64,000 nucleotides of DNA from Solirubrobacterales bacterium (GCA_038254735.1 JBBSFX010000009.1:12831-76830); one strand, 5' to 3'. Positions 9,303 through 51,715 are shown, numbered from the stretch's first letter. Notes: generated by a model not told the origin, from the sequence alone. Numbers and translations are program-made.

Positions 9303-9758
9303 TCAACGGTGCCCGGCGCAGACGCCCTCGGCGCTCCGGGTCGCGAACAGCTCGGCCTGGGCGAGCGTCCGGTCCCGCGCGCCGGCGGTGTCGGGAAAGC
9401 TGATCGTGCCCTGCTGCAGGCTGACCGTGAAGAAGTCGACGGCGCCGTGGCCGGCCGGGAAGCGGGCGTGCTTCTGGACCTCCCTGGCCACGTTGTCGGC
9501 GAGGTCGCGAGCCTGGATCAGCGCCGGGTCCGGCAGGCTCCGCGCCGCGGCGCCGTTGCAGCGGATCGTGCCGCCGTCGTTGACCAGCAGCGTCAGCTTG
9601 CCCTGCGCGCCGGTCCGCGTGAGCAGGAACAGGTCAGCGGAGCGCACCTGGAAGCCGCAGCCGGCGGCGGCGAGGGCGGCCCACATGGCCGCCACCGCGG
9701 CGATGGGCGCGCGCGGGCGGGACGCTCGCGGGCGGCCCAGCAGGCCCGGCAGGCCCAT
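9303..9758 (-). CDS. hypothetical lipoprotein
   Basis: ATG overlaps ggt stop (TGATG); hydrophobic stretch ending LAAAGC (lipobox-like); high GC3. Confidence 0.6.
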   Translation of the reverse strand: MGLPGLLGRPRASRPRAPIAAVAAMWAALAAAGCGFQVRSADLFLLTRTGAQGKLTLLVNDGGTIRCNGAAARSLPDPALIQARDLADNVAREVQKHARFPAGHGAVDFFTVSLQQGTISFPDTAGARDRTLAQAELFATRSAEGVCAGHR

Positions 9759-11278
9759 CACGCGACGACGACGGCGTGACCGCCGCGGCGGGGATCGCCC
9801 CCGCCCCAGAAGCGCCCGGTCGCGTCGCGCTGGACCGCCTGCACGCCGCCGAAGAACAGATTCCGATCGCGGAACGGGACTACGCGGCGGCCGGCCGCCC
9901 GCAGCGCCGTCACGTCGATCCCGGGCTCGGCGTAGACGATCTCGTCCTCGTAGTGGAGGCGTGGCGCCCGCACCGCGTCGGCCGCCGGCAGCCCGTCGTC
10001 GAGCACGCGGACGATCGTCTGCAGGATCGCCGAGCGGATCCGGTTCGAGCCGGCGCTGCCGAGCACCAGCTCGGGCACGCCGTCGCGGCGGACCACGGTC
10101 GGGGCCATCATGCTGGGCAGCCGGCGTCCGGGCGGATGGCGGTGGAAGCCGAGGGGGTTGAGGTCCTGCTCGCCGAGCATGTTGTTCAGGTGCACGCCGG
10201 TGCCGGGGACGACCACCCCCGAGCACGAGCCGGCCGAGCACGTTACCGAGCAGGCCAGCGCGGACGCGTCGAGCACGGCGATGTGCGTGGTCGAACCGAG
10301 CCGACCCCCGCCGCAGTCCGTCCCGGGCGCGCCTTCGCCGGCGTCCCCGCGCAGGAACCGCTCGACGAACCCCGGATCGTCGAGGCCGGCGAGGAACTCG
10401 GGCGTACGCTCGCGCTGGGCGCGCTCGATCACCGCCGTGATCTGCTCGGCGTCCGGGGCGCCCGCGCCGGTGTCGGCATCGAGCATCGACAGGCCCAGCG
10501 CGATCAGGATCCCGCCCGCGGACGGCGGCGGGTTGGTCAGCACCTCCCGGCCGCGGTAGCGGGCGCGGATCGGCTCACGATCGATCACGGTGTAGGCGGC
10601 CAGGTCGGCGATGGTCAGCAGGCCGCCACGCTCGCCCAGCCACTCGACGATCGCCCGGCCGATGTCGCCGCCGTAGAACGGCTCGGCGCCCTCGGACCCG
10701 AGGCGCTCGAGCGCGTCGGCGAGCTCGGGCTGGCGGATCACCCCGCCCTCCCCGAGCAGTGTCCCGCCCGGGGCGAACAGCGCCGCGCACTCCGGGGTCG
10801 AGGTGACGATCCCGGCGAGGATCTCGACGATGTAGGCCTGCTGGCGGCTCAGCGGCACGCCGAGCCGGGCGTGCGCCGCCGCGGGCCGGGCGAGCTCGGC
10901 CAGCGGCACCGTCCCGAACCGCTCGGAGGCCGCGCACACCCCCGCGGGGACGCCGTAGCCGCCGACCGAGGCGACGCCGATGTTGAACTCCTGAACGACG
11001 TCGCCAAACGACACCGCGACGGGCAGCAGCTCCGCGTGGGCCTCAGGATCGCGCCCGCGTCCAGGCGCCTCGACGAAGAAGTCGAGCAGCACCGGGTCGC
11101 CGCGCGGCGGGGCGATCAGCATGTACCCGCCGGCGCCCAGGCCGGTGAGCAGCGGCTCGCACGCGAACGAGGTCAGCATCGCCCCAAGCGCCGCGTCGAC
11201 GGCGTTGCCGCCCGTGCGCAGCACCTCCGCCCCGGCATCGGCGCTGAGGGGATGGCCGGCAGCGACCACGCCGAGCAT
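9758..11278 (-). CDS. ggt: gamma-glutamyltransferase family protein
   Basis: GGNAVDAA, GLGAGG, nucleophile motif STTHIAV, LNNML, PSMMAP, GSAGS, DPRRGG. Confidence 0.92.
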   Translation of the reverse strand: MLGVVAAGHPLSADAGAEVLRTGGNAVDAALGAMLTSFACEPLLTGLGAGGYMLIAPPRGDPVLLDFFVEAPGRGRDPEAHAELLPVAVSFGDVVQEFNIGVASVGGYGVPAGVCAASERFGTVPLAELARPAAAHARLGVPLSRQQAYIVEILAGIVTSTPECAALFAPGGTLLGEGGVIRQPELADALERLGSEGAEPFYGGDIGRAIVEWLGERGGLLTIADLAAYTVIDREPIRARYRGREVLTNPPPSAGGILIALGLSMLDADTGAGAPDAEQITAVIERAQRERTPEFLAGLDDPGFVERFLRGDAGEGAPGTDCGGGRLGSTTHIAVLDASALACSVTCSAGSCSGVVVPGTGVHLNNMLGEQDLNPLGFHRHPPGRRLPSMMAPTVVRRDGVPELVLGSAGSNRIRSAILQTIVRVLDDGLPAADAVRAPRLHYEDEIVYAEPGIDVTALRAAGRRVVPFRDRNLFFGGVQAVQRDATGRFWGGGDPRRGGHAVVVA

Positions 11279-11302
11279 CCCGACTCCGGTCGGACGCCGG
11301 TG

Positions 11303-11335
11303 CCGCTAGTGGTCTCCGTTGGCGACCACTAGCGG
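11303..11335. terminator. perfect 12-bp-arm inverted repeat covering the ftsZ stop codon
   Basis: CCGCTAGTGGTC-(9 nt)-GACCACTAGCGG; no U-tract. Confidence 0.4.
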
Positions 11336-12963
11336 CGGGGGATGAACTCGGGCACGTCGAGATCGATCACCGGCTCGCGGCGACGCACGCGGCTGACCCG
11401 CGGCTCGCCGGCCGGCTCACGGTCCGCGCGGGGCTCCCGTCGCTCGCCGTAGCGACCCGCGTCCCCGCGCCGCCCCGAGTCCCCGCCGCGGACCGACTCG
11501 TGCGGGCGTACGGAGCTCAGCACCGGCCGCTCCTCGGTCCGTCGGGGGTGCCCGGCGCCGTAGCCGGTGGCCACGACCGTCACCCACACCTGGTCCTCGA
11601 GGCGCTCGTCGACCATCGCGCCGAAGATGATGTTGGCGTCGGGATGGGCGGCCTCGGCAACAGCCTTGGCCGCCTCGTTGACCTCCCACAGCGAGATGTC
11701 CCGCCCGCCGGTGATCGAGAGCAGGATCGAGTGGGCGCCGTCCATGCTCGTCTCGAGCAGCGGCGAGGCCACCGCCTGCTCGGCCGCCTCGACGGCCCGC
11801 CGGTCGCCGGTGCCCATGCCAATCCCGAGCAGCGCGTTGCCGGCGTTGGACATGATCGTGCGGACGTCGGCGAAGTCGAGGTTGATCAGCCCCGGCAGCG
11901 TCACCAGGTCGGAGATCCCCTGCACGCCCTGGCGCAGCACATCATCGGCGACGCGGAACGCCTCGACCATCGAGGTGTGGCGATCGAGCACGGTCAGCAG
12001 CCGGTTGTTGGGGACGACGATCAGCGTGTCGACCTCCTCGGCCAGGGCGGCGATCCCCACCTCGGCCTGATCACGCCGGCGTGTGCCCTCGAATTGGAAC
12101 GGGCGCGTGATGATCCCGACGGTCAGCGCACCGAGATCTCGGGCGATCTGCGCCACCACGGGGGCGGCGCCGGTGCCGGTGCCGCCGCCGGCGCCGGCGG
12201 CGATGAACACCATGTCCGAGCCGCGCAGCATCGCCTTGATCCGGTCGTGCTCCTCCTTGGCCGCGGCGCGGCCGAGCTCCGGGTTCGAGCCGGAGCCGAG
12301 GCCGCGGGTGATCGCGTCGCCGATGTGGAGGGTCTCGGGCGCGGCCGACTGCTGCAGCGACTGCAGGTCCGTGTTGATGGCGATGAACTCGACGCCCTCG
12401 ATCTCGGCCTCGATCATCCGGTTGACCGCGTTGACGCCGGCCCCGCCGACGCCGACCACGCGCAGCACCGGGGTCCCGACGGGCCGCGGCGGGGGAAACG
12501 CCTCGCCGGCCCGCTCCGAGCGGGCGTAGACGTCGGGCTCGGGCCGCGCGTACACGTCGGGCGCGGGGGCCTCGGGGGGCAGCGCGGGCTCGGAAGCGAG
12601 CGCGGGCTCGGAAGCGAGCGCGGGCTCGGGGGCAAGCGGCGGCTCGGGCGCCCGCTCGGGCTCCGGCGCCGGACGCTCCATCAGGCTCTCGGGGATGTCG
12701 GACGAGAACACCTGGCGCAGGCGCTCCTGCGGCGACGGGATCGCCGGCGGCTCGGCCGCGGCGTCCCCCGGCGCCCGCCTCTCGGCGTGGGCCGACGGCG
12801 ACGGCGACGGCGACGGGTGCGGACGGGACGGGCGCCCCTCGGGGGCGGTGTCCTGCGTCGGCGGCGCCGCGGCCTGCTCGGCGGCCGCCGCGTCCTCGGT
12901 CGTCTTGCGGAACAGGGCGGCCAGCGGTCCCTCACGCATGCTCGCCCGCTTAGCGTTTGGCAT
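11329..12963 (-). CDS. ftsZ: cell division protein FtsZ with ~165-aa N-terminal extension
   Basis: GVGGAGVNAVNRM, GAGGGTGTG, INLDFADV (T7), C-terminal DVPEFIP; ATG 12963 has AAGGAGGT SD embedded in the parA 3' end. Confidence 0.95.
   Translation of the reverse strand: MPNAKRASMREGPLAALFRKTTEDAAAAEQAAAPPTQDTAPEGRPSRPHPSPSPSPSAHAERRAPGDAAAEPPAIPSPQERLRQVFSSDIPESLMERPAPEPERAPEPPLAPEPALASEPALASEPALPPEAPAPDVYARPEPDVYARSERAGEAFPPPRPVGTPVLRVVGVGGAGVNAVNRMIEAEIEGVEFIAINTDLQSLQQSAAPETLHIGDAITRGLGSGSNPELGRAAAKEEHDRIKAMLRGSDMVFIAAGAGGGTGTGAAPVVAQIARDLGALTVGIITRPFQFEGTRRRDQAEVGIAALAEEVDTLIVVPNNRLLTVLDRHTSMVEAFRVADDVLRQGVQGISDLVTLPGLINLDFADVRTIMSNAGNALLGIGMGTGDRRAVEAAEQAVASPLLETSMDGAHSILLSITGGRDISLWEVNEAAKAVAEAAHPDANIIFGAMVDERLEDQVWVTVVATGYGAGHPRRTEERPVLSSVRPHESVRGGDSGRRGDAGRYGERREPRADREPAGEPRVSRVRRREPVIDLDVPEFIPRR
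12583..12630. repeat. 18-bp in-frame tandem repeat (PALASE) in FtsZ extension
   Basis: gcgggctcggaagcgagc twice plus a partial copy; protein EPALASEPALASEPAL. Confidence 0.85.
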
Positions 12964-13717
12964 TCGACAAGACCTCCTTCGCAAGCTGCCGGTAGGCGTG
13001 TGCGGCTAGACCGTCAGGATCGTACTTCAGCACCGACATGCCCTTGACCGGCGCTTCGGCGAAACGAACCGTCTTGCGGATCCGCGAGGCGAACACGCGG
13101 TCTCCGAAATTCTCCTCCAGCAGCTCGATCGCCTCCTTGGCGTGCAGCGTCCGTGAATCGACCAGCGTCGGCAGGATCCCCTCGATGTCCACGTTGGGGT
13201 TGAGGTTCTCGCGAATCATCGCCAGCGTGTTCTGCAGCTGGACCAGGCCGCGCATCGACAGATATTCGCACTGGACGGGGACGATCACCTTGTGCGCGGC
13301 CGTCAGCGCGTTGATCGTGAGCAGGCCGAGGCTCGGCGGCGTGTCGATGAAGACGAAGTCGTACTCCTCCTCGACCCCGCGCAGGGCCTTCTCCAGCGAG
13401 CGCTCGCGGCCGATCTGCGTCGACATCGCGATCTCGGCGCCGGCGAGATCGATCGAGGCGCAGGCCACGTCGATCTCGCGGGTCTGGATCACGTCGCCGA
13501 TCGGGATGTGGTGGACCAACACGTCGTACATCGACTTCTGCAGGGTGTCGGGGTCGATCCCCTGCGACATGGTCAGGTTGCCCTGGGGGTCCATGTCGCA
13601 GCACAGCACGCGATGACCCTCCTCGGCGAAGGCGACCGCGAGGTTCAGCGTGGTCGTAGTCTTGGCGACGCCACCCTTCTGGTTGGCGAACGCGATCACC
13701 TTGGCGGTGGCCGTCAC
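12950..13717 (-). CDS. parA: ParA/Soj family ATPase (no parB adjacent)
   Basis: deviant Walker A KGGVAKTT, DMDPQGN, DTPPSLG, DSRT, VRFAEAP; GGAG SD before GTG 13717. Confidence 0.93.
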   Translation of the reverse strand: MTATAKVIAFANQKGGVAKTTTTLNLAVAFAEEGHRVLCCDMDPQGNLTMSQGIDPDTLQKSMYDVLVHHIPIGDVIQTREIDVACASIDLAGAEIAMSTQIGRERSLEKALRGVEEEYDFVFIDTPPSLGLLTINALTAAHKVIVPVQCEYLSMRGLVQLQNTLAMIRENLNPNVDIEGILPTLVDSRTLHAKEAIELLEENFGDRVFASRIRKTVRFAEAPVKGMSVLKYDPDGLAAHAYRQLAKEVLSNAKR

Positions 13718-13824
13718 GGGTGGCTCCGGAGGGTCGAGGAACACATACGCGCCTGTATTCGTACGGATCGCCCGGATTCCTTTGCCGATGGCCGGTTTCC
13801 GGGGACCCGGTATGTTCCGCCCCC

Positions 13825-14772
13825 GTGCCAGGACTGCTGGATCACCGGCTGCTGTTCGTGACGGGCAAGGGTGGCGTCGGCAAGTCGACCGTGGCCACGG
13901 CGATCGGGCTGCTGGCCGCGCAGCGCGGGCTGCGCACGATCGTCGCCGAGCTGTCCGGGCAGGTGCAGATCCAGCACGCCCTCGGCCATCGCGGGGAGCG
14001 CTTCGAGGAGGTCGAGCTGGCGCCCGGCCTGTTCACGATCTCGATCGACCCCCAGCATGCGATGGAGGAGTACCTGCGCGTCAAGGCCGGCGTGCTCGGC
14101 GCTGCGCTCGGCCACAGCCGCCTGTTCGGGATCTTCGCGATGGCCACCCCGGGGATGCGCGAGCTGCTCAGCGTCGGCAAGGTGTGGGAGCTCTCGCAGG
14201 AGCGCCGGCGCTCGGAGGGCGGCGCCGCCTACGACCTGGTGATCGTCGACGCCCCAGCCACCGGGCACGGGGTCGGCTTGCTGCGCACGCCGCGGACGTT
14301 CGCCGAGATCGCCCGCGTCGGGCCGATCGCCGCCCAGGGCGCCACGATCGCCGCGACGATCGCCGACCGCGACTTCACCGGCGTGATCGCCGTGTGCACG
14401 GCCGAGGAGATGCCGGTCAATGAGACGCTCGAGCTCGAGGCGGAGCTGCATAGCGACGGGCTCGCTCTCGACGCGGTGGTCCTCAACGCGGCCTATCCGC
14501 GCCGGTTCGACGCCGACGAGGCGGCGGCGCTGGCGGCGGCTTCGTCGGACGCCGAGACGGTGGCGGTGCGCGGAGCGCTCCACGCGGCGCTGTCCGAGCA
14601 CGCCCGGGCGCAGACCCAGTCGGCGCAACGGGTGCGGCTCCGGTCGGGGCTCCGGGCGCCGGTGCTGGAGCTCTCGTACCTGTTCTGTGAGGAGGTCCGC
14701 CGGGGCGAGCTCGAGACGCTGGCCGACGAGCTCGACCTCGCGCTCGCAGGCCTCGGGGGAGCCTTCGCGTGA
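13825..14772 (+). CDS. ArsA/Get3-like ATPase (Rv3679-like)
   Basis: VTGKGGVGKS, PGMRELLSVGK, DAPATGH, EEMPVNET; TATGTT 8 nt before GTG. Confidence 0.88.
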   Translation: MPGLLDHRLLFVTGKGGVGKSTVATAIGLLAAQRGLRTIVAELSGQVQIQHALGHRGERFEEVELAPGLFTISIDPQHAMEEYLRVKAGVLGAALGHSRLFGIFAMATPGMRELLSVGKVWELSQERRRSEGGAAYDLVIVDAPATGHGVGLLRTPRTFAEIARVGPIAAQGATIAATIADRDFTGVIAVCTAEEMPVNETLELEAELHSDGLALDAVVLNAAYPRRFDADEAAALAAASSDAETVAVRGALHAALSEHARAQTQSAQRVRLRSGLRAPVLELSYLFCEEVRRGELETLADELDLALAGLGGAFA

Positions 14773-15920
14773 GCATCGCCAAGCTGCTCGAGGGCAAGCG
14801 CGTGTGCGTGTGCGCCGGCTCCGGCGGGGTGGGCAAGACGACCAGCGCGGCGGCGATCGCGCTGGGAATGGCGGCCCAGGGGGCGCGCGTCGCCGTGGTG
14901 ACGATCGACCCCGCGCGCCGGCTCGCCAACGCCCTCGGGCTGGAGGCGCTCCAGAACGAGCCGCGGCGGGTCGGGCCCGAGCGCCTGGCCGCCGCCGGGC
15001 GCGAGGTGCGCGGGGAGCTGTGGGCGATGATGCTCGACCCCAAGCGCACGTTCGACGAGCTGATCGAGCGGGTCGCCCCGGACCCCGCGCGCGCCGAGGA
15101 GATCAAGGCCAACCGGGTCTACCGCGAGCTGTCGAGCGCCGTCTCGGGCTCCCAGGAGTTCACGGCGATCGCCAAGCTCTACGACCTCCAGCGCGATGGC
15201 GGCTTCGACCTGCTGGTGCTCGACACGCCGCCGTCGCGCAACGCGCTCGACTTCCTCGATGCCCCCGGCCGGCTCACCTCGTTCCTGGAGGGCCGGGCGC
15301 TGAAGACGCTGCTGCGGCCGACAGGCCTGGGCATCGGTGTGCGGGTGCTCGGCCGCGGCGCCTCGCCGCTGTTCGGGGTGCTGCGCCGGATCACCGGGGT
15401 CGACCTGCTGTCGGACCTGTCGAGCTTCTTCGGGCTGCTCGGTGACATGACCGAGGACTTCAGCGAGCGCGCCGCCGCCGTCGAGGCGATGCTCAAAGCC
15501 CCCAGCACGGCGTTCCTGATCGTCACCTCGGCGCTCAGCCCCTCGATCGACGAGGCGATCTGGTTCCGCCGCACGCTCGGCGAGAGCGGGCTGCCGTTCG
15601 CCGGGGCGATCGTCAACCGCGTGCACCACGACCTCCTCGACGGGGGCGAGCCCGATGGCCTGGCCGGCCCCCTGGCCGACGCGCTCGGTCCCTCGCTCGG
15701 CGCCCGGGTGGTCCAGAACCTCCGCGACTATCACCTGCTGGCGCGTCGCGACGGGCGCAACATCGCCCGTCTGCAGCGGGCGCTCGGCCCCGGCCCATTG
15801 ATCCAGGTACCGCACTTCGACGACGATGTCCACGACATCGAGGGTCTGCTGGCCGTCGAGCGCTACCTGTTCGCCTCGGCGGCTGAGCGTGCCGCGATGC
15901 TCGCCTCAGTCGTCTCTTGA
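14769..15920 (+). CDS. ArsA/Get3-like ATPase (Rv3680-like)
   Basis: GSGGVGKTT, TIDPARRLA, DTPPSRNALDFLDAP; GTGA overlap with upstream paralog. Confidence 0.9.
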   Translation: MSIAKLLEGKRVCVCAGSGGVGKTTSAAAIALGMAAQGARVAVVTIDPARRLANALGLEALQNEPRRVGPERLAAAGREVRGELWAMMLDPKRTFDELIERVAPDPARAEEIKANRVYRELSSAVSGSQEFTAIAKLYDLQRDGGFDLLVLDTPPSRNALDFLDAPGRLTSFLEGRALKTLLRPTGLGIGVRVLGRGASPLFGVLRRITGVDLLSDLSSFFGLLGDMTEDFSERAAAVEAMLKAPSTAFLIVTSALSPSIDEAIWFRRTLGESGLPFAGAIVNRVHHDLLDGGEPDGLAGPLADALGPSLGARVVQNLRDYHLLARRDGRNIARLQRALGPGPLIQVPHFDDDVHDIEGLLAVERYLFASAAERAAMLASVVS

Positions 15921-16849: not shown

Positions 16850-18121
16850 TTAGCCGACCCCGGCCACCGCATCCTGGAGCAGCCCGTCGGCGACGGCGCG
16901 CAGATCGACGTCGAGATGCCCACAGAGGACGTCGCGCAGCAGCGTCCGCAGGTGCTCGGCGAGCTCGTCGACCAGCCCGTCGGCGCCGGGGCCGGCCGGG
17001 GCGAGGCCGGCGATCACCGCGCGCTCGAGCGAGATCGCGTGCGCTACGCGCTCGGCCAGCGCGGCCCGGTGCTCCGGTGGGGCGCAGATCACCGCAAGCC
17101 GTTGGGCCAGGCGCCCGCTGGCCGGGCCCTCCGGCTCGAGCAGCGCCCGCAGGGCCAGGAGGTGGTCGGTCAGCGACTCGAAGGGAACGATCCGATCGCA
17201 GCCGAGCTCGTAGCGGCTGAGTGCCCACGCGACCTCGCCGCCGCTCGGGATGCGGCGGGCGATCAGGTTGCAGAACGCCCGCAGCTCATCCTCCTGCGCG
17301 ACCGGGATCAGCGTCACGAAGCGCGGGCGACCGGTGGCGCCGAAGGCGACCGGCCGCCACGAGCCGGCGTCCGCCCGCGACCACAGCATCGGGCCGAGCG
17401 CATAGCCGCCGCGCTCGAACAGCCGGATCGCCGTCAGCACCCGGCGAAAGCGGCCTCGAGCCTGCGAGATCGGCGGATGCGCCGCGCGCTCGTGGCTGGT
17501 CCTGAGCACCAGCAGCACATACGGCTGCTCGGTGCGGGGGTCGCCGGTTCCGGTCCCCCACACCGCCTCGGCCGGGGCGTCGGCGATCGCGTCACCGGGA
17601 ACCAGCGACAGGCCCTCGCCGAGCGGCAGCTCGCGCGTGCCCGGATCGAGCCCGATGCCGAGCAGCGGCGCGATCACGGTGGTCACGCAGCGGCCGTCGT
17701 AGAGCGCGTGCTCGAGCTCGTCGTAGGCGGCGGCGAAGCGCGCATCGTCGAGGCCGAACTCGCTGCGCTCCTCGAACACGCGCGCGAGGAAGCACCGCAG
17801 CACCGCGTCGGCTCGCTCCCGCGCCGCGGACGGGATCCGCTGTTCGCCACGCCGGCGTAGATAGGTTTCGGCGCCCTCGAGCTCGGCCAGCGCGCGGGAC
17901 ACCGCCGTATGACTCGGCAGCGCCGAGAGCACGCCGAGCCGCTCGCGGATGAACGAGCCGGTCAGCGGGCGGTAGCAGTACAGCGGGACGCGGCCGCGGC
18001 TGCCGTCGGTCTCGACGATCTCGAACGGGATCTCGACGCCACGCGCGGTCTCCGCGGTCAACTGCATCGACGAGTCGGCGGTGAACTCGAGCAGGCCCGC
18101 GTGCAGGGTGGCGTTGCGCAC
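16850..18121 (-). CDS. hypothetical protein with C-terminal HEPN-like (Apea-type) domain lacking the catalytic His
   Basis: ALSRYELG..FESLTDHLLALRALLE..RLAQRLAVI..R..ERAVIAG follows the HEPN pattern as I recall it. Confidence 0.65.
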   Translation of the reverse strand: MRNATLHAGLLEFTADSSMQLTAETARGVEIPFEIVETDGSRGRVPLYCYRPLTGSFIRERLGVLSALPSHTAVSRALAELEGAETYLRRRGEQRIPSAARERADAVLRCFLARVFEERSEFGLDDARFAAAYDELEHALYDGRCVTTVIAPLLGIGLDPGTRELPLGEGLSLVPGDAIADAPAEAVWGTGTGDPRTEQPYVLLVLRTSHERAAHPPISQARGRFRRVLTAIRLFERGGYALGPMLWSRADAGSWRPVAFGATGRPRFVTLIPVAQEDELRAFCNLIARRIPSGGEVAWALSRYELGCDRIVPFESLTDHLLALRALLEPEGPASGRLAQRLAVICAPPEHRAALAERVAHAISLERAVIAGLAPAGPGADGLVDELAEHLRTLLRDVLCGHLDVDLRAVADGLLQDAVAGVG

Positions 18122-23027: not shown

Positions 23028-23966
23028 TCAGGACGGCCCGGGCGGTCCCACCGCCACGCCCGCCGCGCCGGCCGCGTAGCGCGCCTCCTCGGCGGCGTGG
23101 ATCAGTCCGCGGCCGCCGTCGGCGTCCTCGCCGAGGACCGCGATCCCGACGGCCACGGCCGGCGGCGCGCCGCGCCAGTCGGGCCCGGCACGCACCGCGG
23201 CGACGATCCGCTCCGCCAGCGCCCGCGCGTCGGCGCGATCGCGGCCGTGCGCGATCACCCAGGACCGCCGGCGATCCGCGTCGGCCACCACGTCTCCCGT
23301 GTCCAGGGCCGCGCAGACCGCATCGCGCAAGACGCCGAAGCCCGCCCACTCCGGTCCCTCGACCGCCAGCAACCGCTCGAGCTCGTCGAGCTCCACGAGC
23401 AGCAACGCCAGCGGCGCGCCGCGTCCGCGGGCGAGGGCGATCTCGTGCTCAAGCCGGGGCTCTGGCCCGTGCGGATCCGCCGCCGCGCCGCCGGGTCCCG
23501 AGCGGGCCGCGAATCCTCGCAGCGCCGCCGCTCGGACCGCCTCGAGTGCGACCGACAGGCGCTCGCCGAGCGCCCAGACGAGCTCAGGGTCCGGGTCGGG
23601 CGACTCGACGCGCAGGGCGCTCCAGATGACGCCGCGGAGCGCATCGAGCGCCGCCGACACCTCGTCGGCGCCGTGCGCGTCGACGAGCTCGCCGATCTCC
23701 GCCAGCAACGGCTCCAGCGCGCCTCCGGGCTGCAGCCGGGCGAGCTGCTCGTCGCACCGCAGGCCGCCGACGATTGCCTCGCAGATGCGCGGGGCCGATC
23801 CGACCAGCCCGCCGGCCAGGAGGCCCTCGGCGCGCTCGAGCGGACGCGCCTCGATGAGCTCGAGCAGCCAGCCCTTGCCGAGCCCGGCGCCACGATCGAG
23901 CAGCCGGTGCACCGGCGCGTCGGAGACCGGACGGGGGCGCCGGCGGCGGGGGGTCCGATCCTCCAT
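23028..23966 (-). CDS. degenerate GGDEF-like domain protein with helical N-terminal domain
   Basis: LEHEIALAR..PLALLLVELDEL..ARALAERI..VAVGIA..LIHAAEEA, with no GGDEF motif. Confidence 0.65.
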   Translation of the reverse strand: MEDRTPRRRRPRPVSDAPVHRLLDRGAGLGKGWLLELIEARPLERAEGLLAGGLVGSAPRICEAIVGGLRCDEQLARLQPGGALEPLLAEIGELVDAHGADEVSAALDALRGVIWSALRVESPDPDPELVWALGERLSVALEAVRAAALRGFAARSGPGGAAADPHGPEPRLEHEIALARGRGAPLALLLVELDELERLLAVEGPEWAGFGVLRDAVCAALDTGDVVADADRRRSWVIAHGRDRADARALAERIVAAVRAGPDWRGAPPAVAVGIAVLGEDADGGRGLIHAAEEARYAAGAAGVAVGPPGPS

Positions 23967-24039
23967 CGCGTTCCTTTTATCACCCCGGCCGGGCGGCCGG
24001 GAGGCGACGCGCCCTGCGAAGCCGTCAAAATCCGACGCC

Positions 24040-24780
24040 ATGACCGGTGCACTGGCAGCGGTCGCCGGGTTGATCGGACTGTTGATCGCCCGGCGGCGCA
24101 AGCGTTCGGCGCTGCCCGCGCGGGCCGTGATCGTCTCGCCGCGCAAGTCCACGTCGATCGCCCAGGACGGCGCGGTCAGCTCGGTGCAGTCGGCTGAACT
24201 GACGATCCCGGCCGCCGATCTCGAGCGGCTGTGGAGCCCGACCAACCTGGAGAACCTCGCGCGCACGTACTGGAGCTTCCTCGGACGAGTCACGCTCGGC
24301 GTGATCCGGGTGCGCTACGGGGAGACCTCGCGCGCGGTGTGCCTGCTCGGCCGGCCGCTGACGCTGCTGCGCTTCGAGCTGCCCGAGTACGACTTCGACC
24401 GCGACCACGGCAAGATCACGTGGCAGATCCGGGACGGGCTGCTGGTCGCCCGCGCGGGCCGCGGCTCCGGGCACCTGCAGGTCGAGGTGCGCCGGCTCGA
24501 GTCGCCGGCTTCGGACAAGGCGAATCTCCGCATCGAGGTCGACGTGTCAAACTTCTACCCGTCGATCGCCGCCGGTCTGAGCACGCCGGTCTACGAGGGC
24601 ACGCAGTCGTTCCTCCACGTGCTGGTCACGCACGCGTTCCTGCGCTCGCTGGCCACGCTGCAGCTGGTCGAGTCGCGAGTCGGCCAGCTCGCCGTCCCCA
24701 CCGACGCCAAGGGCGAGCCGCCGCCGGCCGAGCCGCCGCGGGGCAGCGACCGCGCCGCCCGCGGCGAGGCCGCCGGCTGA
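24040..24780 (+). CDS. hypothetical protein with N-terminal membrane anchor
   Basis: MTGALAAVAGLIGLLIARRRKR anchor, then a beta-rich domain; high GC3. Confidence 0.75.
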   Translation: MTGALAAVAGLIGLLIARRRKRSALPARAVIVSPRKSTSIAQDGAVSSVQSAELTIPAADLERLWSPTNLENLARTYWSFLGRVTLGVIRVRYGETSRAVCLLGRPLTLLRFELPEYDFDRDHGKITWQIRDGLLVARAGRGSGHLQVEVRRLESPASDKANLRIEVDVSNFYPSIAAGLSTPVYEGTQSFLHVLVTHAFLRSLATLQLVESRVGQLAVPTDAKGEPPPAEPPRGSDRAARGEAAG

Positions 24781-26427: not shown

Positions 26428-27195
26428 ATGCCGCCCGCTCCGGTGAGCTTCCGCCAGCTGCTGCCCGAGGCCGCCGAGCTCGATGCATCCGCGGCGCTCG
26501 ACGCCATGTTCGCCGCCCTGACGCCACCGGTCGACCGGCCGTTCACGATCGTCAACTTCGTCGCCAGCGCGGATGGGCGCGCGACCGTCCAGGGACGCTC
26601 GGCCGGCCTCGGCGACGACGGCGACAAGGCGATCTTCCACGGGCTGCGGGAACGCGTCGACGCGGTGCTGGCCGGCGGCGTGACGATGCGCACCGAGGGC
26701 TACGGGCGGATCCTCGGCAAGCCCGAGCGCAGACGGCGCCGGCGCGAGCGCGGCCTCCCGGACGAGCCACTGGCCTGCGTGATCACGCGCAGCGGCGAGG
26801 TCCCGACCGAGATCCCGCTGTTCGGCGAGCCGGAGGCCCGGATCATCGTGTTCGGTCCCCCGGCGCTGCGCGCGCCGCTGAGGGCCTGCCCCGCCCAGGT
26901 CGACCTGGTCGAGCTCGCCGGAGCGCAGCTGACGCTGTCGGCGGCGCTGGAGCGGCTGCGCGCTGAGCACGGAGTGCGGACGCTGCTGTGCGAGGGCGGC
27001 CCGCGGCTGTTCACCTCGCTGCTGCACGAAGGCCTCGTCGACGAGCTGTTCCTGACGCTGGCGCCGAAGCTCGTCGCGGGCGACGGCCCCACGGTCACCA
27101 CCGGACCCGAGTTGACGCCGCCGGCCCCAATGGAGCTGCGCTGGCTGCTGGCCCGCGAGCAGGCCCTGTACGCCCGCTACGCCCTGCGCCGTTAA
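26428..27195 (+). CDS. RibD C-terminal/dihydrofolate reductase-like protein
   Basis: NFVASADG, LRERVDAVLAG, LLCEGGPRL, VDELFLTLAP; TAGGTT 8 nt before ATG. Confidence 0.88.
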   Translation: MPPAPVSFRQLLPEAAELDASAALDAMFAALTPPVDRPFTIVNFVASADGRATVQGRSAGLGDDGDKAIFHGLRERVDAVLAGGVTMRTEGYGRILGKPERRRRRRERGLPDEPLACVITRSGEVPTEIPLFGEPEARIIVFGPPALRAPLRACPAQVDLVELAGAQLTLSAALERLRAEHGVRTLLCEGGPRLFTSLLHEGLVDELFLTLAPKLVAGDGPTVTTGPELTPPAPMELRWLLAREQALYARYALRR

Positions 27196-27233
27196 TACGT
27201 TGTTTTGTTTCCCCGCAGGGCCGGTTTGGAAGA

Positions 27234-28571
27234 ATGGCTGTCATGGGCAGCCTGATCGCAGCCGACGCCGCCCTGACTGCGCCCGCCGCGATCGAGGGGT
27301 TAACGGAGGCCCGCACGCGCACGCTCGATCTCGTCGCCTCACTCTCCGACGACGTGCTCGAGCGCGTCCACTCGCCGCTGATGAGCCCGCTGGTGTGGGA
27401 TCTCGGCCACATCGCCGCGTTCGAGGACCTGTGGCTGGTGCACCGGTCCGCGGGTCGGCCGCTGCTCCACGATGACCTCGCCGACGTCTACGACGCCTTC
27501 GAGACCCCACGCGCCGGCCGCGGCGAGCTGCCGTTCCTGCCCGGCGACGGCGCCCGCGAGTACCTCGGCGAGGTCCGCGCCCGGACGCTCGAGGTGATCG
27601 AGCGCCAGGGGGTCGGCGACGGGCTCGTGCACGAGATGGTGATCCGCCACGAGCACCAGCATTGCGAGACGATGCTGCAGACGATCCAGCTCGGCGAGCT
27701 CGCCCCCTACGTCCCGGTCCGTGGAGGGTCGGCCGCCCCCGACTCCATCGCCGGTGCGTCGGACGGCGAGCCCGCCGCGCTGACCGGGCTCGAGCTGGTC
27801 GAGGTGCGGGACGGCCCGTGCACGATCGGCGCCGGACCGGAGGGCTTCGCCTACGACAACGAGCGCGGCCGCCACGCCCGGCACCTCGGGAGCTTCCAGA
27901 TCGGGGGCGCGCCGGTGACCAACGCCACCTACCTGAGCTTCGTCGAGGGCGGCGGCTACGAGCGCCGCGAGTGGTGGTCGGATGAGGGCTGGGCGTGGAA
28001 GGAGGAGTACGACATCACGAGACCCGGTGGCTGGACGGAGGACCTCCGCTCGGAGTGGCGCCTAGGTGAGCTCGAGCCCCTGCATCCCGACCGACCGGTG
28101 GTCCACGTCTCCTGGTTCGAGGCCGAGGCCTTCGCCCGGACCCATGAGGCCCGCCTACCGAGCGAGTTCGAGTGGGAGAAGGCCGCGACCTGGGATCAGG
28201 AGCGGGGCGCCGCCCGCCGCTATCCATGGGGCGAGGATCCGCCGGTCCCCGGCCGGCACGCCAACCTCGACCACCACGCGTCGGGCCCGGTGGCCGCCGG
28301 CGCCTACCCCCACGGCGCCTCGCCGTACGGCTGCCTGGGAATGCTCGGCGACGTCTGGGAGTGGACGGCGAGCGAGTTCGACGGCTACCCCGGCTTCGCC
28401 GCTCACCCGTACCCGCAGTACTCCGAGGTGTTCTTCGGCCAGGGCTACCGCGTGCTGCGCGGCGGCTCGTGGGCGACGCGCGCGCGCGTCGTCACGCCGG
28501 CGTTAAGGAACTGGGACCACCCAATGCGTCGGCAGATCTTCGCCGGCTTCAGGATCGCGAGAGACTCGTAG
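27234..28571 (+). CDS. egtB: ergothioneine sulfoxide synthase EgtB (DinB + FGE-sulfatase domains)
   Basis: SPLVWDLGH, HEHQH iron ligands, PRAGR, YSEVF, RNWDHPMRRQIFAGFR; start 27234 or 27243. Confidence 0.88.
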   Translation: MAVMGSLIAADAALTAPAAIEGLTEARTRTLDLVASLSDDVLERVHSPLMSPLVWDLGHIAAFEDLWLVHRSAGRPLLHDDLADVYDAFETPRAGRGELPFLPGDGAREYLGEVRARTLEVIERQGVGDGLVHEMVIRHEHQHCETMLQTIQLGELAPYVPVRGGSAAPDSIAGASDGEPAALTGLELVEVRDGPCTIGAGPEGFAYDNERGRHARHLGSFQIGGAPVTNATYLSFVEGGGYERREWWSDEGWAWKEEYDITRPGGWTEDLRSEWRLGELEPLHPDRPVVHVSWFEAEAFARTHEARLPSEFEWEKAATWDQERGAARRYPWGEDPPVPGRHANLDHHASGPVAAGAYPHGASPYGCLGMLGDVWEWTASEFDGYPGFAAHPYPQYSEVFFGQGYRVLRGGSWATRARVVTPALRNWDHPMRRQIFAGFRIARDS

Positions 28572-28576
28572 ACACG

Positions 28577-29575
28577 ATGAAGTCCGTACTCAACACACCC
28601 GCCGTCCGGATCGACTCGTGGCTGTCGGAGGCCGAGGAGCGCAGCCTCGCCAACGACGTCCTCGACGGGCTCACGCGGCCGTTCAAGGAGCTCCCGCCCA
28701 AGCACTTCTACGACACCCGCGGCTCGGAGCTGTTCGAGCAGATCTGCGAGCTGCCCGAGTACTACCCGACGCGCACCGAGCTGGCGATCCTGCGACATGT
28801 GGCCCGGGAGCTGGTCGCCACCACCGGGGCCGGGGAGCTGATCGAGCTCGGCTCCGGGGCATCGGTCAAGGCGCGGATCCTGCTCGACGCGATGGCCGCC
28901 GAGGGGACGCTGCAGCGCTACGTGCCGCTCGACGTGTCCGCGGCCGCGGTCGAGGATGCCGCCGGCACGCTGATCGAGGACTACGCCGGGCTGCAGGTGC
29001 ATGGCGTGATCGGCGACTTCGAGCGTCATCTGAACCGCGTGCCGGACGCCAACGGCACGCCCCGGCTGGTGGCTCTGCTCGGCGGTACGATCGGCAACTT
29101 CCCGCCCGGCACCCGGCGCGGGCTGCTGCGCAAGATCGGGGACGTGCTCGGCCCCGCGGACCGGCTGCTGCTGGGGACCGACCTGGTCAAGGACCCGGCG
29201 GTGCTGGAGGCCGCCTACGACGACACCGCCGGCGTGACCGCCGAGTTCAACCGCAACGTGCTGCACGTGATCAACCGCGAGCTGGGCGCCGACTTCCCCG
29301 CCGACGCCTTCGAGCACGTGGCGTTCTACGACCGCCGCCACGAGTGGATCGAGATGCGGCTGCGATCGACGCGGCCCTGCAGCGTGCTCGTCGCGGAGCT
29401 CGGGCTGCGGGTCGAGTTCGCCGCCGGCGAGGAGCTGCGCACCGAGATCAGCGCCAAGTTCACGCGCCCTCGGATCGAGGCCGACTTCGCCGCGGCGGGG
29501 CTCGAGCTCGAGCGCTTCTATACCGACGACGAGGAGCTGTTCGCGCTCACGCTGGCGCGCCCTGCCCCGCAGTAG
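28577..29575 (+). CDS. egtD: L-histidine N-alpha-methyltransferase EgtD
   Basis: KELPPKHFYD, LPEYYPTR, ELGSG, GGTIGN, AYDDTAGVTAEFN, EISAKF. Confidence 0.94.
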   Translation: MKSVLNTPAVRIDSWLSEAEERSLANDVLDGLTRPFKELPPKHFYDTRGSELFEQICELPEYYPTRTELAILRHVARELVATTGAGELIELGSGASVKARILLDAMAAEGTLQRYVPLDVSAAAVEDAAGTLIEDYAGLQVHGVIGDFERHLNRVPDANGTPRLVALLGGTIGNFPPGTRRGLLRKIGDVLGPADRLLLGTDLVKDPAVLEAAYDDTAGVTAEFNRNVLHVINRELGADFPADAFEHVAFYDRRHEWIEMRLRSTRPCSVLVAELGLRVEFAAGEELRTEISAKFTRPRIEADFAAAGLELERFYTDDEELFALTLARPAPQ

Positions 29576-48035: not shown

Positions 48036-48716
48036 CTACGCCGAGTTGGCGCTCTCGGCCAGCTCGCGGAACAGCCCGGTGACCACGAACACGATCTGCT
48101 CGGCGATGTCGACGGTGTTGTCGCCGATCCGCTCGAGGCATCGCGCAACGAGGATCATGAACATCGCCCACTCACGCATGTCGAGGTCGTCGCCGACGTC
48201 CACGGCACGCCGGAAGATCGAGCGGTTAAGCCGGTTGATCTCAGCGTCCTGGCGAACCAGGTCCTTGGCCAGCGCGACGTTGCGCCCCGCGAACGCCTCC
48301 TTGATCTGGACCACCTGCGACCGGGCGAGCTGACCCATCCGCTCGATCGCGTCGAGGATCTCCTTGTCCTTCGGGGACTCGTAGCCGGACAGGGGCACGA
48401 GCTTGGCGATGTTGACGCACTGGTCGCCCATCCGCTCGATGCAGCGGATCATGTGGAGCAGCGCCGCGACGATCCGCAGGTCGGTGGCCACGGGCGCCTG
48501 GCGGGCCAGCAGCGAGAGAATCCCCTGATGGACCTCGAGGTAGCGTCCGTCGATGCGATCGTCGTCGGCCACCACCATCGTGGCCAGCTCGACGTCCTGG
48601 TAGCTCAGCGACTCGAGCGCGCGGTCGAGCTGGAACACGACGAGGTCGAGGCCGCCGAGCGTCTGGGCCTCGAGCTCCTTGAGCGACTCCCGAAACTGGT
48701 GGCGGACCTCCTGCAT
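48036..48716 (-). CDS. phoU: phosphate signalling protein PhoU
   Basis: DDRID, QAPVATDLR, ERMGD, LERIGD repeats. Confidence 0.95.
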   Translation of the reverse strand: MQEVRHQFRESLKELEAQTLGGLDLVVFQLDRALESLSYQDVELATMVVADDDRIDGRYLEVHQGILSLLARQAPVATDLRIVAALLHMIRCIERMGDQCVNIAKLVPLSGYESPKDKEILDAIERMGQLARSQVVQIKEAFAGRNVALAKDLVRQDAEINRLNRSIFRRAVDVGDDLDMREWAMFMILVARCLERIGDNTVDIAEQIVFVVTGLFRELAESANSA

Positions 48717-48727
48717 GTCCGCGACTA

Positions 48728-48839
48728 CCCGAATTTCCCAGGAAGTGACCCGAATCGTCGCATCGCGCCCACGCTCACCCGAACTTCCCAGGAAGTGACC
48801 CGAATCGTCGCATCGCAGCCACGCTCACCCGAACTTCCC
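48728..48839. repeat. 50-bp tandem duplication spanning the pstB stop and pstB-phoU spacer
   Basis: cccgaa(t/c)ttcccaggaagtgacccgaatcgtcgcatcgc..ccacgctca x2 plus partial third copy. Confidence 0.92.
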
Positions 48840-50629: not shown

Positions 50630-50631
50630 CG

Positions 50632-51708: not shown

Positions 51709-51715
51709 CGGGCGC

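What the first reader, a model, noticed from the sequence alone, without database searches (positions are those of the whole stretch)
11329..13717. Orphan ParA translationally coupled to an FtsZ that begins with a ParB-like ParA-activating peptide
Seen: parA overlaps ftsZ by 14 nt, with a perfect AAGGAGGT SD inside the parA 3' end, and no parB is adjacent. FtsZ has an intact GTPase core and C-terminal peptide, but is preceded by ~165 aa: a short basic/amphipathic head (MPNAKRASMREGPLAALFRKT) and a long Pro/Ala/Glu linker. The gene lies outside a dcw cluster. Known: ParB/Spo0J proteins stimulate ParA through an N-terminal K/R-rich ...G-L-x-A-L-L/F peptide. Inference: this head mimics that peptide, so FtsZ itself could be the ParA partner. 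That would be a two-gene division-site positioning system linking a nucleoid-binding ATPase directly to the Z-ring. ParA keeps basic residues at the Soj DNA-binding positions (DSRT, IRKTVR).
Basis: partly seen in the sequence, partly recalled or inferred. Interest (0 to 1): 0.85.

Follow-up and report, generated by a model that had tools for sequence, protein, structure and literature searches.

The report
ParA gene coupled to peptide-tagged FtsZ
In a whole class of soil actinobacteria, the cell-division protein FtsZ carries a near-invariant short peptide at its start and is always encoded overlapping a ParA-type positioning ATPase, which suggests, but does not prove, that FtsZ itself is what this ATPase binds.

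Summary
On the minus strand, parA (12950-13744) overlaps ftsZ (11329-12963) by 14 nt, with AAGGAGGT 8 nt before the ftsZ ATG. FtsZ has a ~165-aa N-terminal extension. No parB, dcw gene or second ftsZ lies in the 64-kb window.

The head KRASMREGPLAxLFR is essentially invariant in over 200 homolog clusters from two orders of Thermoleophilia (Solirubrobacterales, Gaiellales), while the linker after it is hypervariable. Its codons vary mainly at third positions, so it is translated. A ParA (82-93% identical within Solirubrobacterales, 72-74% in Gaiellales) sits directly upstream in 79 of 81 loci that carry the head (84 fetched), with a 14-nt overlap in 70 of 79. This ParA keeps its ATPase motifs, a DNA-binding arginine, and every residue of the peptide pocket mapped in Myxococcus ParA.

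"ParB-like" is only a resemblance. The canonical LG(R/K)GLxxL(I/L) register is not met, and similarity to a verified Spo0J peptide is not significant.

Best reading (about 0.55): the head is a ParA-binding and activating peptide, so FtsZ filaments act as cargo and activator of nucleoid-bound ParA. I found no prior report. It is a new variant of ParA/MinD positioning systems.

Untested: direct binding, a second ftsZ, and a canonical parAB elsewhere in the genome.

The parts
12950..13744 (-). parA: Soj/ParA-type deviant Walker A ATPase. The longest ORF is 264 aa; the likely start is the GTG at 13717, giving 255 aa.
   Evidence: Pfam AAA_31 at 202 bits and CbiA at 99 bits. The nearest solved structures are the M. 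smegmatis ParA-like protein 4PFS/5IF9 (208 bits), M. xanthus ParA 8RAY (195 bits, 40.6% identity) and T. thermophilus Soj 1WCV (178 bits). Most homologs are 255 aa. K23, K28, D50, D52, N56, Y73, D74, I105, L139, L141, I144, M176, L181, R198 and R227 align to functional residues of M. xanthus ParA.
12972..12979 (-). Shine-Dalgarno sequence AAGGAGGT for ftsZ, inside the 3' end of parA, 8 nt upstream of the ATG.
   Evidence: Read directly. GGAGG lies within 18 nt upstream of the ATG in 77 of 81 related loci.
12950..12963 (-). 14-nt overlap of the parA 3' end (including its stop) with the ftsZ 5' end, an arrangement consistent with translational coupling.
   Evidence: The same 14-nt overlap occurs in 70 of 79 paired loci. 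The others have 8, 11, 17 or 29 nt of overlap, or a gap of 26-27 nt.
11329..12963 (-). ftsZ, 544 aa plus stop.
   Evidence: TIGR00065 ftsZ equivalog at 418 bits (cut-off 295); Pfam Tubulin and FtsZ_C.
12892..12963 (-). Head peptide, aa 1-24: MPNAKRASMREGPLAALFRKTTED. This is the proposed ParA-binding and activating peptide.
   Evidence: K5 R6 A7 M9 R10 G12 P13 L14 L17 F18 R19 are invariant in the alignments. The head is conserved in Gaiellales as MARKRASMREGPLAELFRAT. Variation is mainly at third codon positions. It sits at or near the predicted N-terminus in all 150 listed hits of a profile search that found 991 proteins.
12472..12891 (-). Pro/Ala/Glu-rich disordered linker, aa 25-164. It is hypervariable in length and sequence and contains an 18-nt tandem repeat.
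   Evidence: Conservation map. The AlphaFold2 model has low confidence here (mostly pLDDT 40-58 per 10-residue block) and no regular structure except one short helix. Homolog lengths range from 434 to 571 aa.
12664..12741 (-). Second conserved linear motif, aa 75-100: IPSPQERLRQVFSSDIPESLMERPAP. Solirubrobacterales only; function unknown.
   Evidence: Predicted helix at aa 78-87. Absent from Gaiellales FtsZ.
12508..12543 (-). Third conserved linear motif, aa 141-152: (E)PDVYARSER.
11554..12471 (-). FtsZ GTPase core and C-terminal domain, aa 165-470, including GGGTGTG and the T7-loop sequence NLDFADV.
   Evidence: Median 87% identity across 82 loci.
11332..11364 (-). C-terminal conserved peptide DLDVPEFIPRR, the usual docking site for membrane anchors and regulators.

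Best explanation
parA and ftsZ form a translationally coupled two-gene module that is conserved across the class Thermoleophilia.

Shown:
- FtsZ carries a translated, near-invariant N-terminal peptide of about 20 residues, followed by a disordered linker of about 90-140 residues.
- A Soj-type ParA with intact ATPase motifs, a DNA-binding arginine and the bipartite activator-peptide pocket is encoded directly upstream and overlaps ftsZ.
- No ParB or other activator gene is adjacent.

Inferred:
- The head folds into a short amphipathic helix (L14, L17, F18, with M9 and R10 upstream). [quoted passage not shown]
- A single peptide binds weakly and a ParA dimer has two pockets. FtsZ filaments present many heads, so they rather than monomers would bind and stimulate nucleoid-bound ParA-ATP.
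- From established FtsZ geometry, the N-terminus of FtsZ points away from the membrane-tethered C-terminus. The long linker could therefore reach from the Z-ring to the nucleoid.
- The expected outcome is a ParA-dependent link between nucleoid and Z-ring that places the ring. This would most likely work by a ParA-gradient or flux mechanism, as for PomXYZ or McdAB cargo, with FtsZ acting as both cargo and activator.
For: 1. Head conservation. The head is near-invariant in 103 of the 120 listed Solirubrobacterales homologs; nearly all the rest start at M9 or later because of the start-codon call. It is present in 106 of 120 Gaiellales homologs. The sequence after it is unalignable. Between the two orders the head matches at 15/17, against 65% for the FtsZ core.
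2. Translation. Head codon entropy is 0.24/0.26/1.09 bits at positions 1/2/3.
3. Linkage. ParA is directly upstream in 79 of 81 loci that carry the head, with a 14-nt overlap in 70 and GGAGG present in 77 of 81. The same adjacency, with a 29-nt overlap, occurs in Gaiellaceae, where the genes upstream of parA differ.
4. ParA is under tighter constraint than FtsZ: 72-74% against 65% between orders.
5. Pocket residues shown by mutagenesis and NMR to bind the ParB peptide in M. xanthus ParA (V116, L150, L152, L155, L187, L192, plus Y81/E82) are I105, L139, L141, I144, M176, L181 and Y73/D74 here. DNA-binding R238 aligns to R227 (PMC12462528).
6. The architecture is a short basic N-terminal peptide followed by an Ala/Pro-rich unstructured region. 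This is the common design of ParA/MinD activators, and such peptides are modular across unrelated proteins (PMC7993993).
7. No ParB box or ParB-type N-terminus lies within 6 kb on either side in 80 genomes or in the window.
Against: - There is no direct evidence of binding; complex modelling was not available.
- The head does not fit the canonical ParB motif register, and its similarity to a verified Spo0J peptide is not significant.
- The ParA pocket would be conserved equally if this ParA worked with a ParB encoded elsewhere, which I could not check.
- Covariation between head variants and ParA residues follows clades and is uninformative.
- No lineage was found that lacks either the head or the ParA, so co-loss could not be tested.
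- In Solirubrobacterales, other conserved motifs in the extension show that the N-terminal region has additional, unknown partners.
Confidence: 0.55

Rival explanations
1. The head does bind ParA, but the system is inhibitory, like nucleoid occlusion or MipZ/MinCD. Nucleoid-bound ParA-ATP captures FtsZ by its head and prevents ring assembly over the DNA. Rings then form only where ParA is absent.
For: This reading uses the same genomic evidence as the best explanation. ParA/MinD relatives that control FtsZ negatively are well known (MinD-MinC, MipZ). Pfam gives a partial MipZ match at 50 bits. Overexpressing ParA-like Rv1708/MSMEG_3743 causes filamentation in mycobacteria (PMC10482377).
Against: The MipZ match covers only profile positions 2-142 of 262 and is far weaker than the generic ParA match. 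Nothing in the sequence distinguishes positive from negative control. A peptide that activates ATP hydrolysis releases ParA from DNA, which fits a transient tether better than stable sequestration.
Confidence: 0.2
2. The head has a function independent of ParA. It could be a membrane-binding amphipathic helix, a DNA-binding basic patch, a regulator of FtsZ polymerisation, or a site for another partner. In that case the parA-ftsZ operon only ensures co-expression. ParA would work with a ParB encoded elsewhere, or contact the FtsZ core.
For: N-terminal FtsZ peptides with other roles exist: one is required for polymerisation in Anabaena (PMC6175996), and an amphipathic helix mediates direct membrane binding in Mycoplasma FtsZ (bioRxiv 10.1101/2023.08.29.555414), both listed. 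Actinobacteria lack FtsA (my own knowledge). The head is basic and partly hydrophobic. Its similarity to ParB peptides is not significant. Mycobacterial ParA-like Rv1708 interacts with ParB and ScpA.
Against: Membrane-targeting helices generally tolerate substitution (my own knowledge). Here charged and Gly-Pro positions are invariant across two orders, which points to a specific protein interface. The head has only three large hydrophobic residues. The head is the only part of the extension conserved together with ParA in Gaiellales. The overlap with parA is maintained even where the flanking genes differ.
Confidence: 0.22
3. The extension is an annotation artefact: the true FtsZ start lies near the tubulin domain and the upstream ORF is untranslated.
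For: High-GC genomes give long spurious ORF extensions. A few database entries start at internal Met codons (P0065, P0092, P0102).
Against: The amino-acid sequence of the head is under purifying selection, with third-position variation only. There is a conserved ATG and Shine-Dalgarno site. The frame stays open in over 200 homolog clusters despite indel-rich linkers. Additional conserved peptide motifs lie in the extension.
Confidence: 0.01

Closest known systems
PomXYZ of Myxococcus xanthus: ParA/MinD ATPase PomZ with activators PomX and PomY positions the Z-ring
   Same: A nucleoid-binding ParA-type ATPase is dedicated to division-site placement. The activator (PomX) uses a conserved, positively charged N-terminal peptide of 22 residues followed by an Ala/Pro-rich unstructured region. 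The cargo is a large multivalent assembly (PMC7993993).
   Different: There, two dedicated adaptor proteins form the cargo and recruit FtsZ. Here no adaptor gene is present and the peptide is on FtsZ itself. The ATPase gene overlaps ftsZ. The peptide sequences are unrelated.
Chromosomal ParABS: Soj/ParA with the ParB N-terminal ParA-binding motif
   Same: The ParA is Soj-like (178-195 bits to solved chromosomal ParA structures). It retains the hydrophobic peptide pocket, the Y/acidic Arg-docking site and a DNA-binding arginine. The downstream gene starts with a basic, Gly-containing peptide ending in LxxL[I/F], and the two genes are tightly coupled like parA-parB.
   Different: The downstream protein is FtsZ, not a CTPase/HTH ParB. 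No parS site is found in the window. The motif register differs: M-R-E-G-P-L-A-A-L-F against L-G-R-G-L-x-x-L-I. Similarity is not statistically significant.
MipZ-ParB (Caulobacter) and MinCDE
   Same: ParA/MinD-family ATPases that set the position of FtsZ assembly.
   Different: MipZ and MinCD inhibit FtsZ, and their ATPase cycle is driven by ParB or MinE, not by FtsZ. This ParA shows no MinD-type C-terminal membrane helix. It scores far below the MinD equivalog cut-offs (50 against 213 bits) and matches only part of the MipZ profile.
Cargo-borne activators: TlpT-PpfA (chemoreceptor cluster) and McdB-McdA (carboxysomes)
   Same: A component of the cargo carries a basic N-terminal extension, which in McdB, and by suggestion in TlpT, activates its ParA-like ATPase (discussed in PMC7993993).
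   Different: The cargoes differ. FtsZ has not been reported as such a cargo in the literature searched.
Orphan actinobacterial ParA-like proteins: PldP of Corynebacterium, Rv1708/MSMEG_3743, and the M. smegmatis protein of PDB 4PFS
   Same: Actinobacterial ParA paralogs without an adjacent parB, with division-related phenotypes and septal or mid-cell localisation (PMC10482377; bioRxiv 10.1101/2025.07.02.662783). The best structural match of the window ParA is a M. smegmatis ParA-like protein.
   Different: Those genes are not next to ftsZ (my own knowledge of the mycobacterial and corynebacterial gene order). No dedicated activator has been identified for them in the papers read, though Rv1708 interacts with ParB. 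Orthology with the Thermoleophilia ParA was not established.
Other FtsZ N-terminal peptides (heterocystous cyanobacteria; Mycoplasma)
   Same: A lineage-specific conserved N-terminal peptide on FtsZ with a functional role (papers listed).
   Different: Neither is reported there with a ParA gene, and I saw no sequence resemblance. Their roles are in polymerisation or membrane binding.

Membership tests
FtsZ (TIGR00065 equivalog) | Tubulin-type GTPase domain plus FtsZ C-terminal domain, scoring above the curated equivalog cut-off | tested here: met
   418 bits against a cut-off of 295. Pfam Tubulin E = 1.4e-46 and FtsZ_C E = 6.2e-32.
FtsZ (TIGR00065 equivalog) | GGGTGTG nucleotide-binding loop, T7 loop, and C-terminal conserved peptide | tested here: met
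   GGGTGTG, NLDFADV and DLDVPEFIPRR were read in the translation and are invariant in alignment A2.
FtsZ (TIGR00065 equivalog) | Being the only (housekeeping) FtsZ of the genome | not testable with these tools
   There is one ftsZ per locus and per window. The best 80 loci come from 80 different genome records. The search patterns were specific to this subfamily, however, so a divergent second copy would have been missed.
ParA/Soj partition ATPase (type Ib) | Deviant Walker A KGGxxK[ST], catalytic Asp/Asn of motif 2, Walker B | tested here: met
   NQKGGVAKTT; K23, K28, D50, D52 and N56 align to M. xanthus K31, K36, D58, D60 and N64.
ParA/Soj partition ATPase (type Ib) | Residue for non-specific DNA binding | tested here: met
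   R227 aligns to M. xanthus R238, whose R238E variant lacks DNA binding (PMC12462528). Binding itself was not assayed.
ParA/Soj partition ATPase (type Ib) | Activator-peptide pocket at the dimer interface | tested here: met
   I105, L139, L141, I144, M176 and L181, plus Y73/D74, align to V116, L150, L152, L155, L187 and L192, plus Y81/E82.
ParA/Soj partition ATPase (type Ib) | Adjacent parB and parS | tested here: not met
   No ParB box or ParB N-terminal motif lies in the window or within 6 kb on either side in 80 loci. No parS within 3 mismatches occurs in the window.
ParA/Soj partition ATPase (type Ib) | Score above an NCBIfam equivalog cut-off | tested here: not met
   The best match is ParA_partition at 118.8 bits against a cut-off of 180. 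All other models are also below their cut-offs.
ParB-type ParA-binding motif | N-terminal, in an unstructured region ahead of the folded domain | tested here: met
   The head is aa 1-24. The AlphaFold2 model is disordered to about aa 165. Profile hits are at or near the predicted N-terminus in all 150 listed.
ParB-type ParA-binding motif | Four hydrophobic residues at i, i+4, i+7, i+8 with a central R/K at i+2 (L11-G-R13-G-L15-x-x-L18-I19 in M. xanthus) | tested here: not met
   L14, L17 and F18 fit positions i+4, i+7 and i+8. The upstream hydrophobic residue and Arg (M9, R10) are out of register, as M-R-E-G-P-L.
ParB-type ParA-binding motif | Detectable sequence similarity to ParB N-termini | tested here: not met
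   phmmer of the head against PDB gave 0 hits at E <= 10. Local alignment to the verified T. thermophilus Spo0J 1-22 was reached by 3169 and 1471 of 20000 shuffles.
ParA/MinD ATPase-activating proteins in general (ParB, MinE, PomX, ParG, McdB, TlpT) | Short conserved N-terminal stretch rich in positive charge, encoded with the cognate ATPase | tested here: met
   K5, R6, R10, R19 and K20 are (near-)invariant. The gene overlaps parA. The criterion is taken from PMC7993993.
ParA/MinD ATPase-activating proteins in general (ParB, MinE, PomX, ParG, McdB, TlpT) | Stimulates the ATPase activity of its partner | not testable with these tools
   This needs biochemistry, or at least multimer modelling, which was not available.
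MinD | C-terminal membrane-targeting amphipathic helix; MinD equivalog score | tested here: not met
   The protein ends ...YRQLAKEVLSNAKR, within the last helix of the ParA fold. TIGR01968 scores 50 bits against a cut-off of 213.
MipZ | Full-length match to the MipZ profile | tested here: not met
   PF09140 scores 50 bits but covers only profile positions 2-142 of 262, against 202 bits for the generic AAA_31 model.

The most novel reading that the evidence does not exclude
The parA-ftsZ operon is a remodelled partition operon. FtsZ has taken the place of ParB, perhaps by capturing or converging on a ParB-like N-terminal tag. The cytokinetic polymer would then be a self-positioning ParA cargo, giving a minimal two-protein system that reads the nucleoid to place the division ring, used by an entire class of abundant soil bacteria.
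Probability: 0.35. Interest if true: 0.9.

Novelty: new variant of a known kind. Interest (0 to 1): 0.78.

Why it matters
Division-site placement in actinobacteria is poorly understood. They lack Min and Noc, and the activators of their orphan ParA-like proteins have not been identified.

If the head is the ParA partner, this would be, as far as I found, the first case in which FtsZ itself carries the activating peptide of a ParA/MinD ATPase. That would reduce a positioning system to two proteins and link nucleoid and Z-ring directly.

The idea can be tested with a 25-residue peptide, a purified ParA and DNA. Cultured Conexibacter (a C. arvalis ParA homolog is in the hit list) and probably Solirubrobacter offer organisms for in vivo work.

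It would also add strong evidence that ParA-activating peptides are portable tags that evolution attaches to new cargoes.

Tried and rejected
- **Head-profile search (34 columns) over 1.84 billion representatives, looking for the head on other protein types.** It gave 991 hits, but the 150 shown are N-terminal FtsZ fragments or frameshifted or chimeric reads (P0216, P0241, P0130). There is no evidence for other carriers, and weaker hits were not visible.
- **Covariation between head variants (A16D and others) and ParA columns.** The top pairs track one clade and are confounded by phylogeny, so this is uninformative.
- **AlphaFold2 of full-length FtsZ with 61 sequences.** Mean pLDDT was 61. It shows only that the extension is disordered, with short helices at aa 15-17 and 78-87; there was no docking information.
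- **Search for a phyletic boundary.** All three protein searches and the genome scan returned only head-bearing FtsZ with a linked ParA (Solirubrobacterales, Gaiellales). The co-loss test was therefore impossible.
- **Identity of the window's source contig.** Exact-product look-up failed, possibly because of start-codon differences.
- **Identity of PDB 4PFS (which M. smegmatis gene).** Not found in the literature searched.
- **Promoter and terminator scan of 11000-14100.** Nothing was found.
- **MinD or MipZ identity for the ParA.** Rejected.
- **Start near the tubulin domain.** Rejected.
Full report
**What is in the sequence**

Both genes lie on the minus strand. The parA ORF runs 13744 to 12950, with its TAA stop at 12950-12952. 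The ftsZ ATG is at 12963-12961 and the ORF ends at 11329. The two genes therefore overlap by 14 nt (12950-12963). AAGGAGGT lies at 12972-12979, 8 nt before the ATG.

The downstream protein is a bona fide FtsZ. It scores 418 bits on the TIGR00065 equivalog, against a cut-off of 295. Pfam places Tubulin at aa 168-326 and FtsZ_C at aa 375-467. The sequence contains GGGTGTG, the T7-loop sequence NLDFADV and the C-terminal peptide DLDVPEFIPRR. About 165 residues precede the core.

The upstream protein is a Soj-type Walker ATPase. Pfam AAA_31 scores 202 bits. It also matches solved ParA structures: 208 bits to a M. smegmatis ParA-like protein, 195 bits to M. xanthus ParA and 178 bits to T. thermophilus Soj. 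Most homologs are 255 aa, which points to the GTG at 13717 as the real start.

Pfam scans of 45 ORFs (most of the likely genes across the 64-kb window) and a tblastn with the FtsZ core found only housekeeping genes. These include GGT, UppP/BacA, a BagA/BagB-like ATPase pair, a principal sigma factor, FtsH, LigD, and pst/phoU/ppk. There was no dcw gene, no parB and no second ftsZ.

**Is the extension real and is the head conserved?**

A search of 5.8 billion proteins returned 120 close homologs at 63-84% identity, named Solirubrobacteraceae where a name exists. Of these, 103 begin M-x-x-x-KRASMREGPLAALFRKT. Nearly all the rest start at M9 or later because of the start-codon call. The sequence becomes unalignable immediately after residue 24.

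A per-residue map shows three things: the head (aa 1-24), two further motifs (aa 75-100 and 141-152) in an otherwise hypervariable linker, and a highly conserved core. Across 81 loci the head codons have entropy of 0.24, 0.26 and 1.09 bits at positions 1, 2 and 3. This is the signature of selection on the peptide. GGAGG lies within 18 nt of the ATG in 77 of 81 loci. The idea that the true start is near the tubulin domain is therefore rejected.

AlphaFold2 with 61 sequences predicts the extension to be disordered, with short helices at aa 15-17 and 78-87.

**Is the link with parA conserved?**

A scan of one genome per GTDB species returned 80 loci from 80 different Solirubrobacterales genomes, including Conexibacteraceae. 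Among all 84 fetched loci, 81 carry the head, and 79 of those have a ParA ORF ending at the ftsZ start. The window ParA is 82-93% identical to the ParAs of the 82 loci first fetched. The overlap is exactly 14 nt in 70 loci. In the others it is 8, 11, 17 or 29 nt, or there is a gap of 26-27 nt.

Two ParA hits led to Gaiellales contigs, a different order of the class. There parA again overlaps ftsZ, by 29 nt, and the genes upstream of parA are different. FtsZ begins MARKRASMREGPLAELFRAT. That head is present in 106 of 120 Gaiellales homologs, with the remainder being start-call variants or carrying R10H.

Between the two orders the head matches at 15 of 17 positions, the FtsZ core at 65% and ParA at 72-74%. 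The rest of the extension, including motifs 2 and 3, is not shared. The head is thus the only part of the extension that travels with ParA.

**Is the ParA competent to use such a peptide?**

A 2025 study mapped the ParB-peptide site of M. xanthus ParA by mutagenesis and NMR. It consists of a hydrophobic pocket (V116, L150, L152, L155, L187, L192) and an adjacent region (Y81/E82) that receives the central Arg. R238 is needed for DNA binding (PMC12462528).

I aligned the window ParA to the crystallised protein, 8RAY, identified by its D60A substitution. The corresponding residues are I105, L139, L141, I144, M176, L181, Y73/D74 and R227. The catalytic residues K23, K28, D50, D52 and N56 are also present. 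The ATPase, the DNA-binding residue and the peptide pocket therefore all appear intact.

The protein has no MinD-type C-terminal membrane helix. It falls below every NCBIfam equivalog cut-off, including MinD, and matches only part of the MipZ profile.

**Is the head "ParB-like"?**

Only loosely. The defined motif is L-G-R/K-G-L-x-x-L-I. The head reads M9-R10-E-G-P-L14-A-A-L17-F18. The LxxL[I/F] half fits, but the upstream hydrophobic residue and the Arg are out of register.

phmmer of the head against all PDB sequences finds nothing at E <= 10. I verified the T. thermophilus Spo0J N-terminus (MSRKPSGLGRGLEALLPKT...), the classic activating peptide. Local alignment gives LAALFRKT against LEALLPKT, but 16% and 7% of shuffles score as well.

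What the head does share with all known activators (ParB, MinE, ParG, PomX, McdB, TlpT) is the general design described for PomX. That design is a short, conserved, positively charged N-terminal peptide ahead of an unstructured, Ala/Pro-rich region, usually encoded with its ATPase (PMC7993993). The 2025 paper also notes that plasmid ParAs keep the same pocket while their ParBs use different peptide sequences, probably to avoid cross-talk. A non-canonical peptide is therefore not evidence against pocket binding.

**Most likely mechanism**

The shown and inferred steps are separated in the Best explanation section. In brief, the head is a ParA-interaction peptide. ParA-ATP dimers sit on the nucleoid. 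FtsZ filaments display many heads on linkers of about 90-140 residues. Each ParA dimer has two pockets and single peptides bind weakly (PMC12462528), so filaments rather than monomers should engage ParA and trigger ATP hydrolysis.

The N-terminus of FtsZ faces away from the membrane-tethered C-terminus. This comes from established knowledge of FtsZ filament geometry and was not tested here. The extension can therefore reach the nucleoid. This would tether and position the ring relative to the DNA, with FtsZ as both cargo and activator, as in PomXYZ or McdAB.

Whether the net effect is positive placement or nucleoid occlusion cannot be told from sequence. I put 0.55 on the interaction-and-positioning model, 0.2 on an inhibitory variant, about 0.22 on a ParA-independent role of the head, and about 0.01 on an annotation artefact.

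**What remains open**

I could not determine whether these genomes also hold a canonical parAB-parS or a second ftsZ in a dcw cluster. No lineage lacking either partner was reached, so co-loss could not be tested. Covariation was confounded by phylogeny. No complex modelling was possible.

**Novelty**

Full-text searches combined FtsZ, ParA, N-terminal extension, Thermoleophilia, Conexibacter, PldP, orphan ParA and related terms. They found no description of this arrangement. The closest published systems are PomXYZ, ParABS, MipZ, MinCDE, the cargo-borne activators TlpT and McdB, and the orphan actinobacterial ParA-like proteins PldP and Rv1708. No dedicated activator has been identified for these orphan proteins in the papers read.

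I file this as a new variant of a known kind, a ParA/MinD positioning system, with high interest. It is conserved across a whole class, simple, and directly testable.

Noticed in passing
window 12664-12741 and 12508-12543 (minus strand; FtsZ aa 75-100 and 141-152): Two more conserved short motifs sit in the otherwise hypervariable FtsZ N-terminal linker: IPSPQERLRxxFSxDIPExxMERPAP (predicted helix at aa 78-87) and EPDVYARxER. They are conserved in Solirubrobacterales but absent in Gaiellales, so they probably serve partners other than ParA.
   Followed up: partly
window 11383-11424 (minus strand; FtsZ aa 514-527): A conserved REPxGEPRVSR motif lies in the C-terminal linker, upstream of the usual C-terminal peptide. 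Its function is unknown.
   Followed up: no
window about 12586-12640: An 18-nt tandem repeat encodes EPALAS about 2.5 times inside the disordered linker. This fits the rapid length variation of the linker among relatives.
   Followed up: no
window 13720-15920 (plus strand): A pair of Get3/ArsA-like ATPases is transcribed divergently from parA. They match the mycobacterial BagA and BagB models, at 137 and 311 bits, both below the equivalog cut-offs. The pair is present in 51-59 of 82 related loci but not next to parA in the Gaiellaceae locus.
   Followed up: partly
window 9758-11278 (minus strand); L083 11048-12607: A gamma-glutamyltranspeptidase gene follows ftsZ in 77 of 82 loci, and also, after an acetyltransferase, in the Gaiellaceae locus. 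This downstream neighbour is unusually stable.
   Followed up: partly
window 12950-12970: Across the overlap, both reading frames encode NAKR: ParA ends ...SNAKR and FtsZ starts MPNAKRA. The ParA tail varies in relatives, so this is probably chance.
   Followed up: partly
proteins P0216, P0241, P0130: In these database entries the head peptide is followed by unrelated sequence. The tail of P0241 looks to me like a TolA/TonB C-terminal domain (by eye, not tested). They are most likely chimeric metagenome assemblies rather than other head-carrying proteins.
   Followed up: partly
proteins P0271-P0273; L083 8001-9125; L084 1409-2545: These ParA entries of 335-378 aa contain an internal duplication of about 110-120 residues at roughly 70-90% identity. 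They look like collapsed strain variants in assemblies, not real domain duplications.
   Followed up: no
window 26988-29575: Two ergothioneine-type genes sit side by side: an FGE-sulfatase/DinB_2 protein, which would be EgtB-like, and a histidine-specific methyltransferase, which would be EgtD-like (the Egt names are my inference from the domains). Their longest ORFs overlap because of extended start calls.
   Followed up: no
window 39033-41765 (minus strand): A three-domain LigD (phosphoesterase, ligase, primase-polymerase) carries a collagen-like Gly-X-Y stretch between its domains (aa 189-234).
   Followed up: no
window 48036-60616: A phosphate-handling cluster: phoU, pst transporter genes, a response regulator, a Ppx/GppA phosphatase and polyphosphate kinase 1.
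   Followed up: no
window 16850-18121 and 23028-24293 (minus strand): Two long ORFs (423 and 421 aa) with coding-like GC3 have no Pfam match. The second overlaps an ORF on the opposite strand, so the gene call there is uncertain.
   Followed up: no
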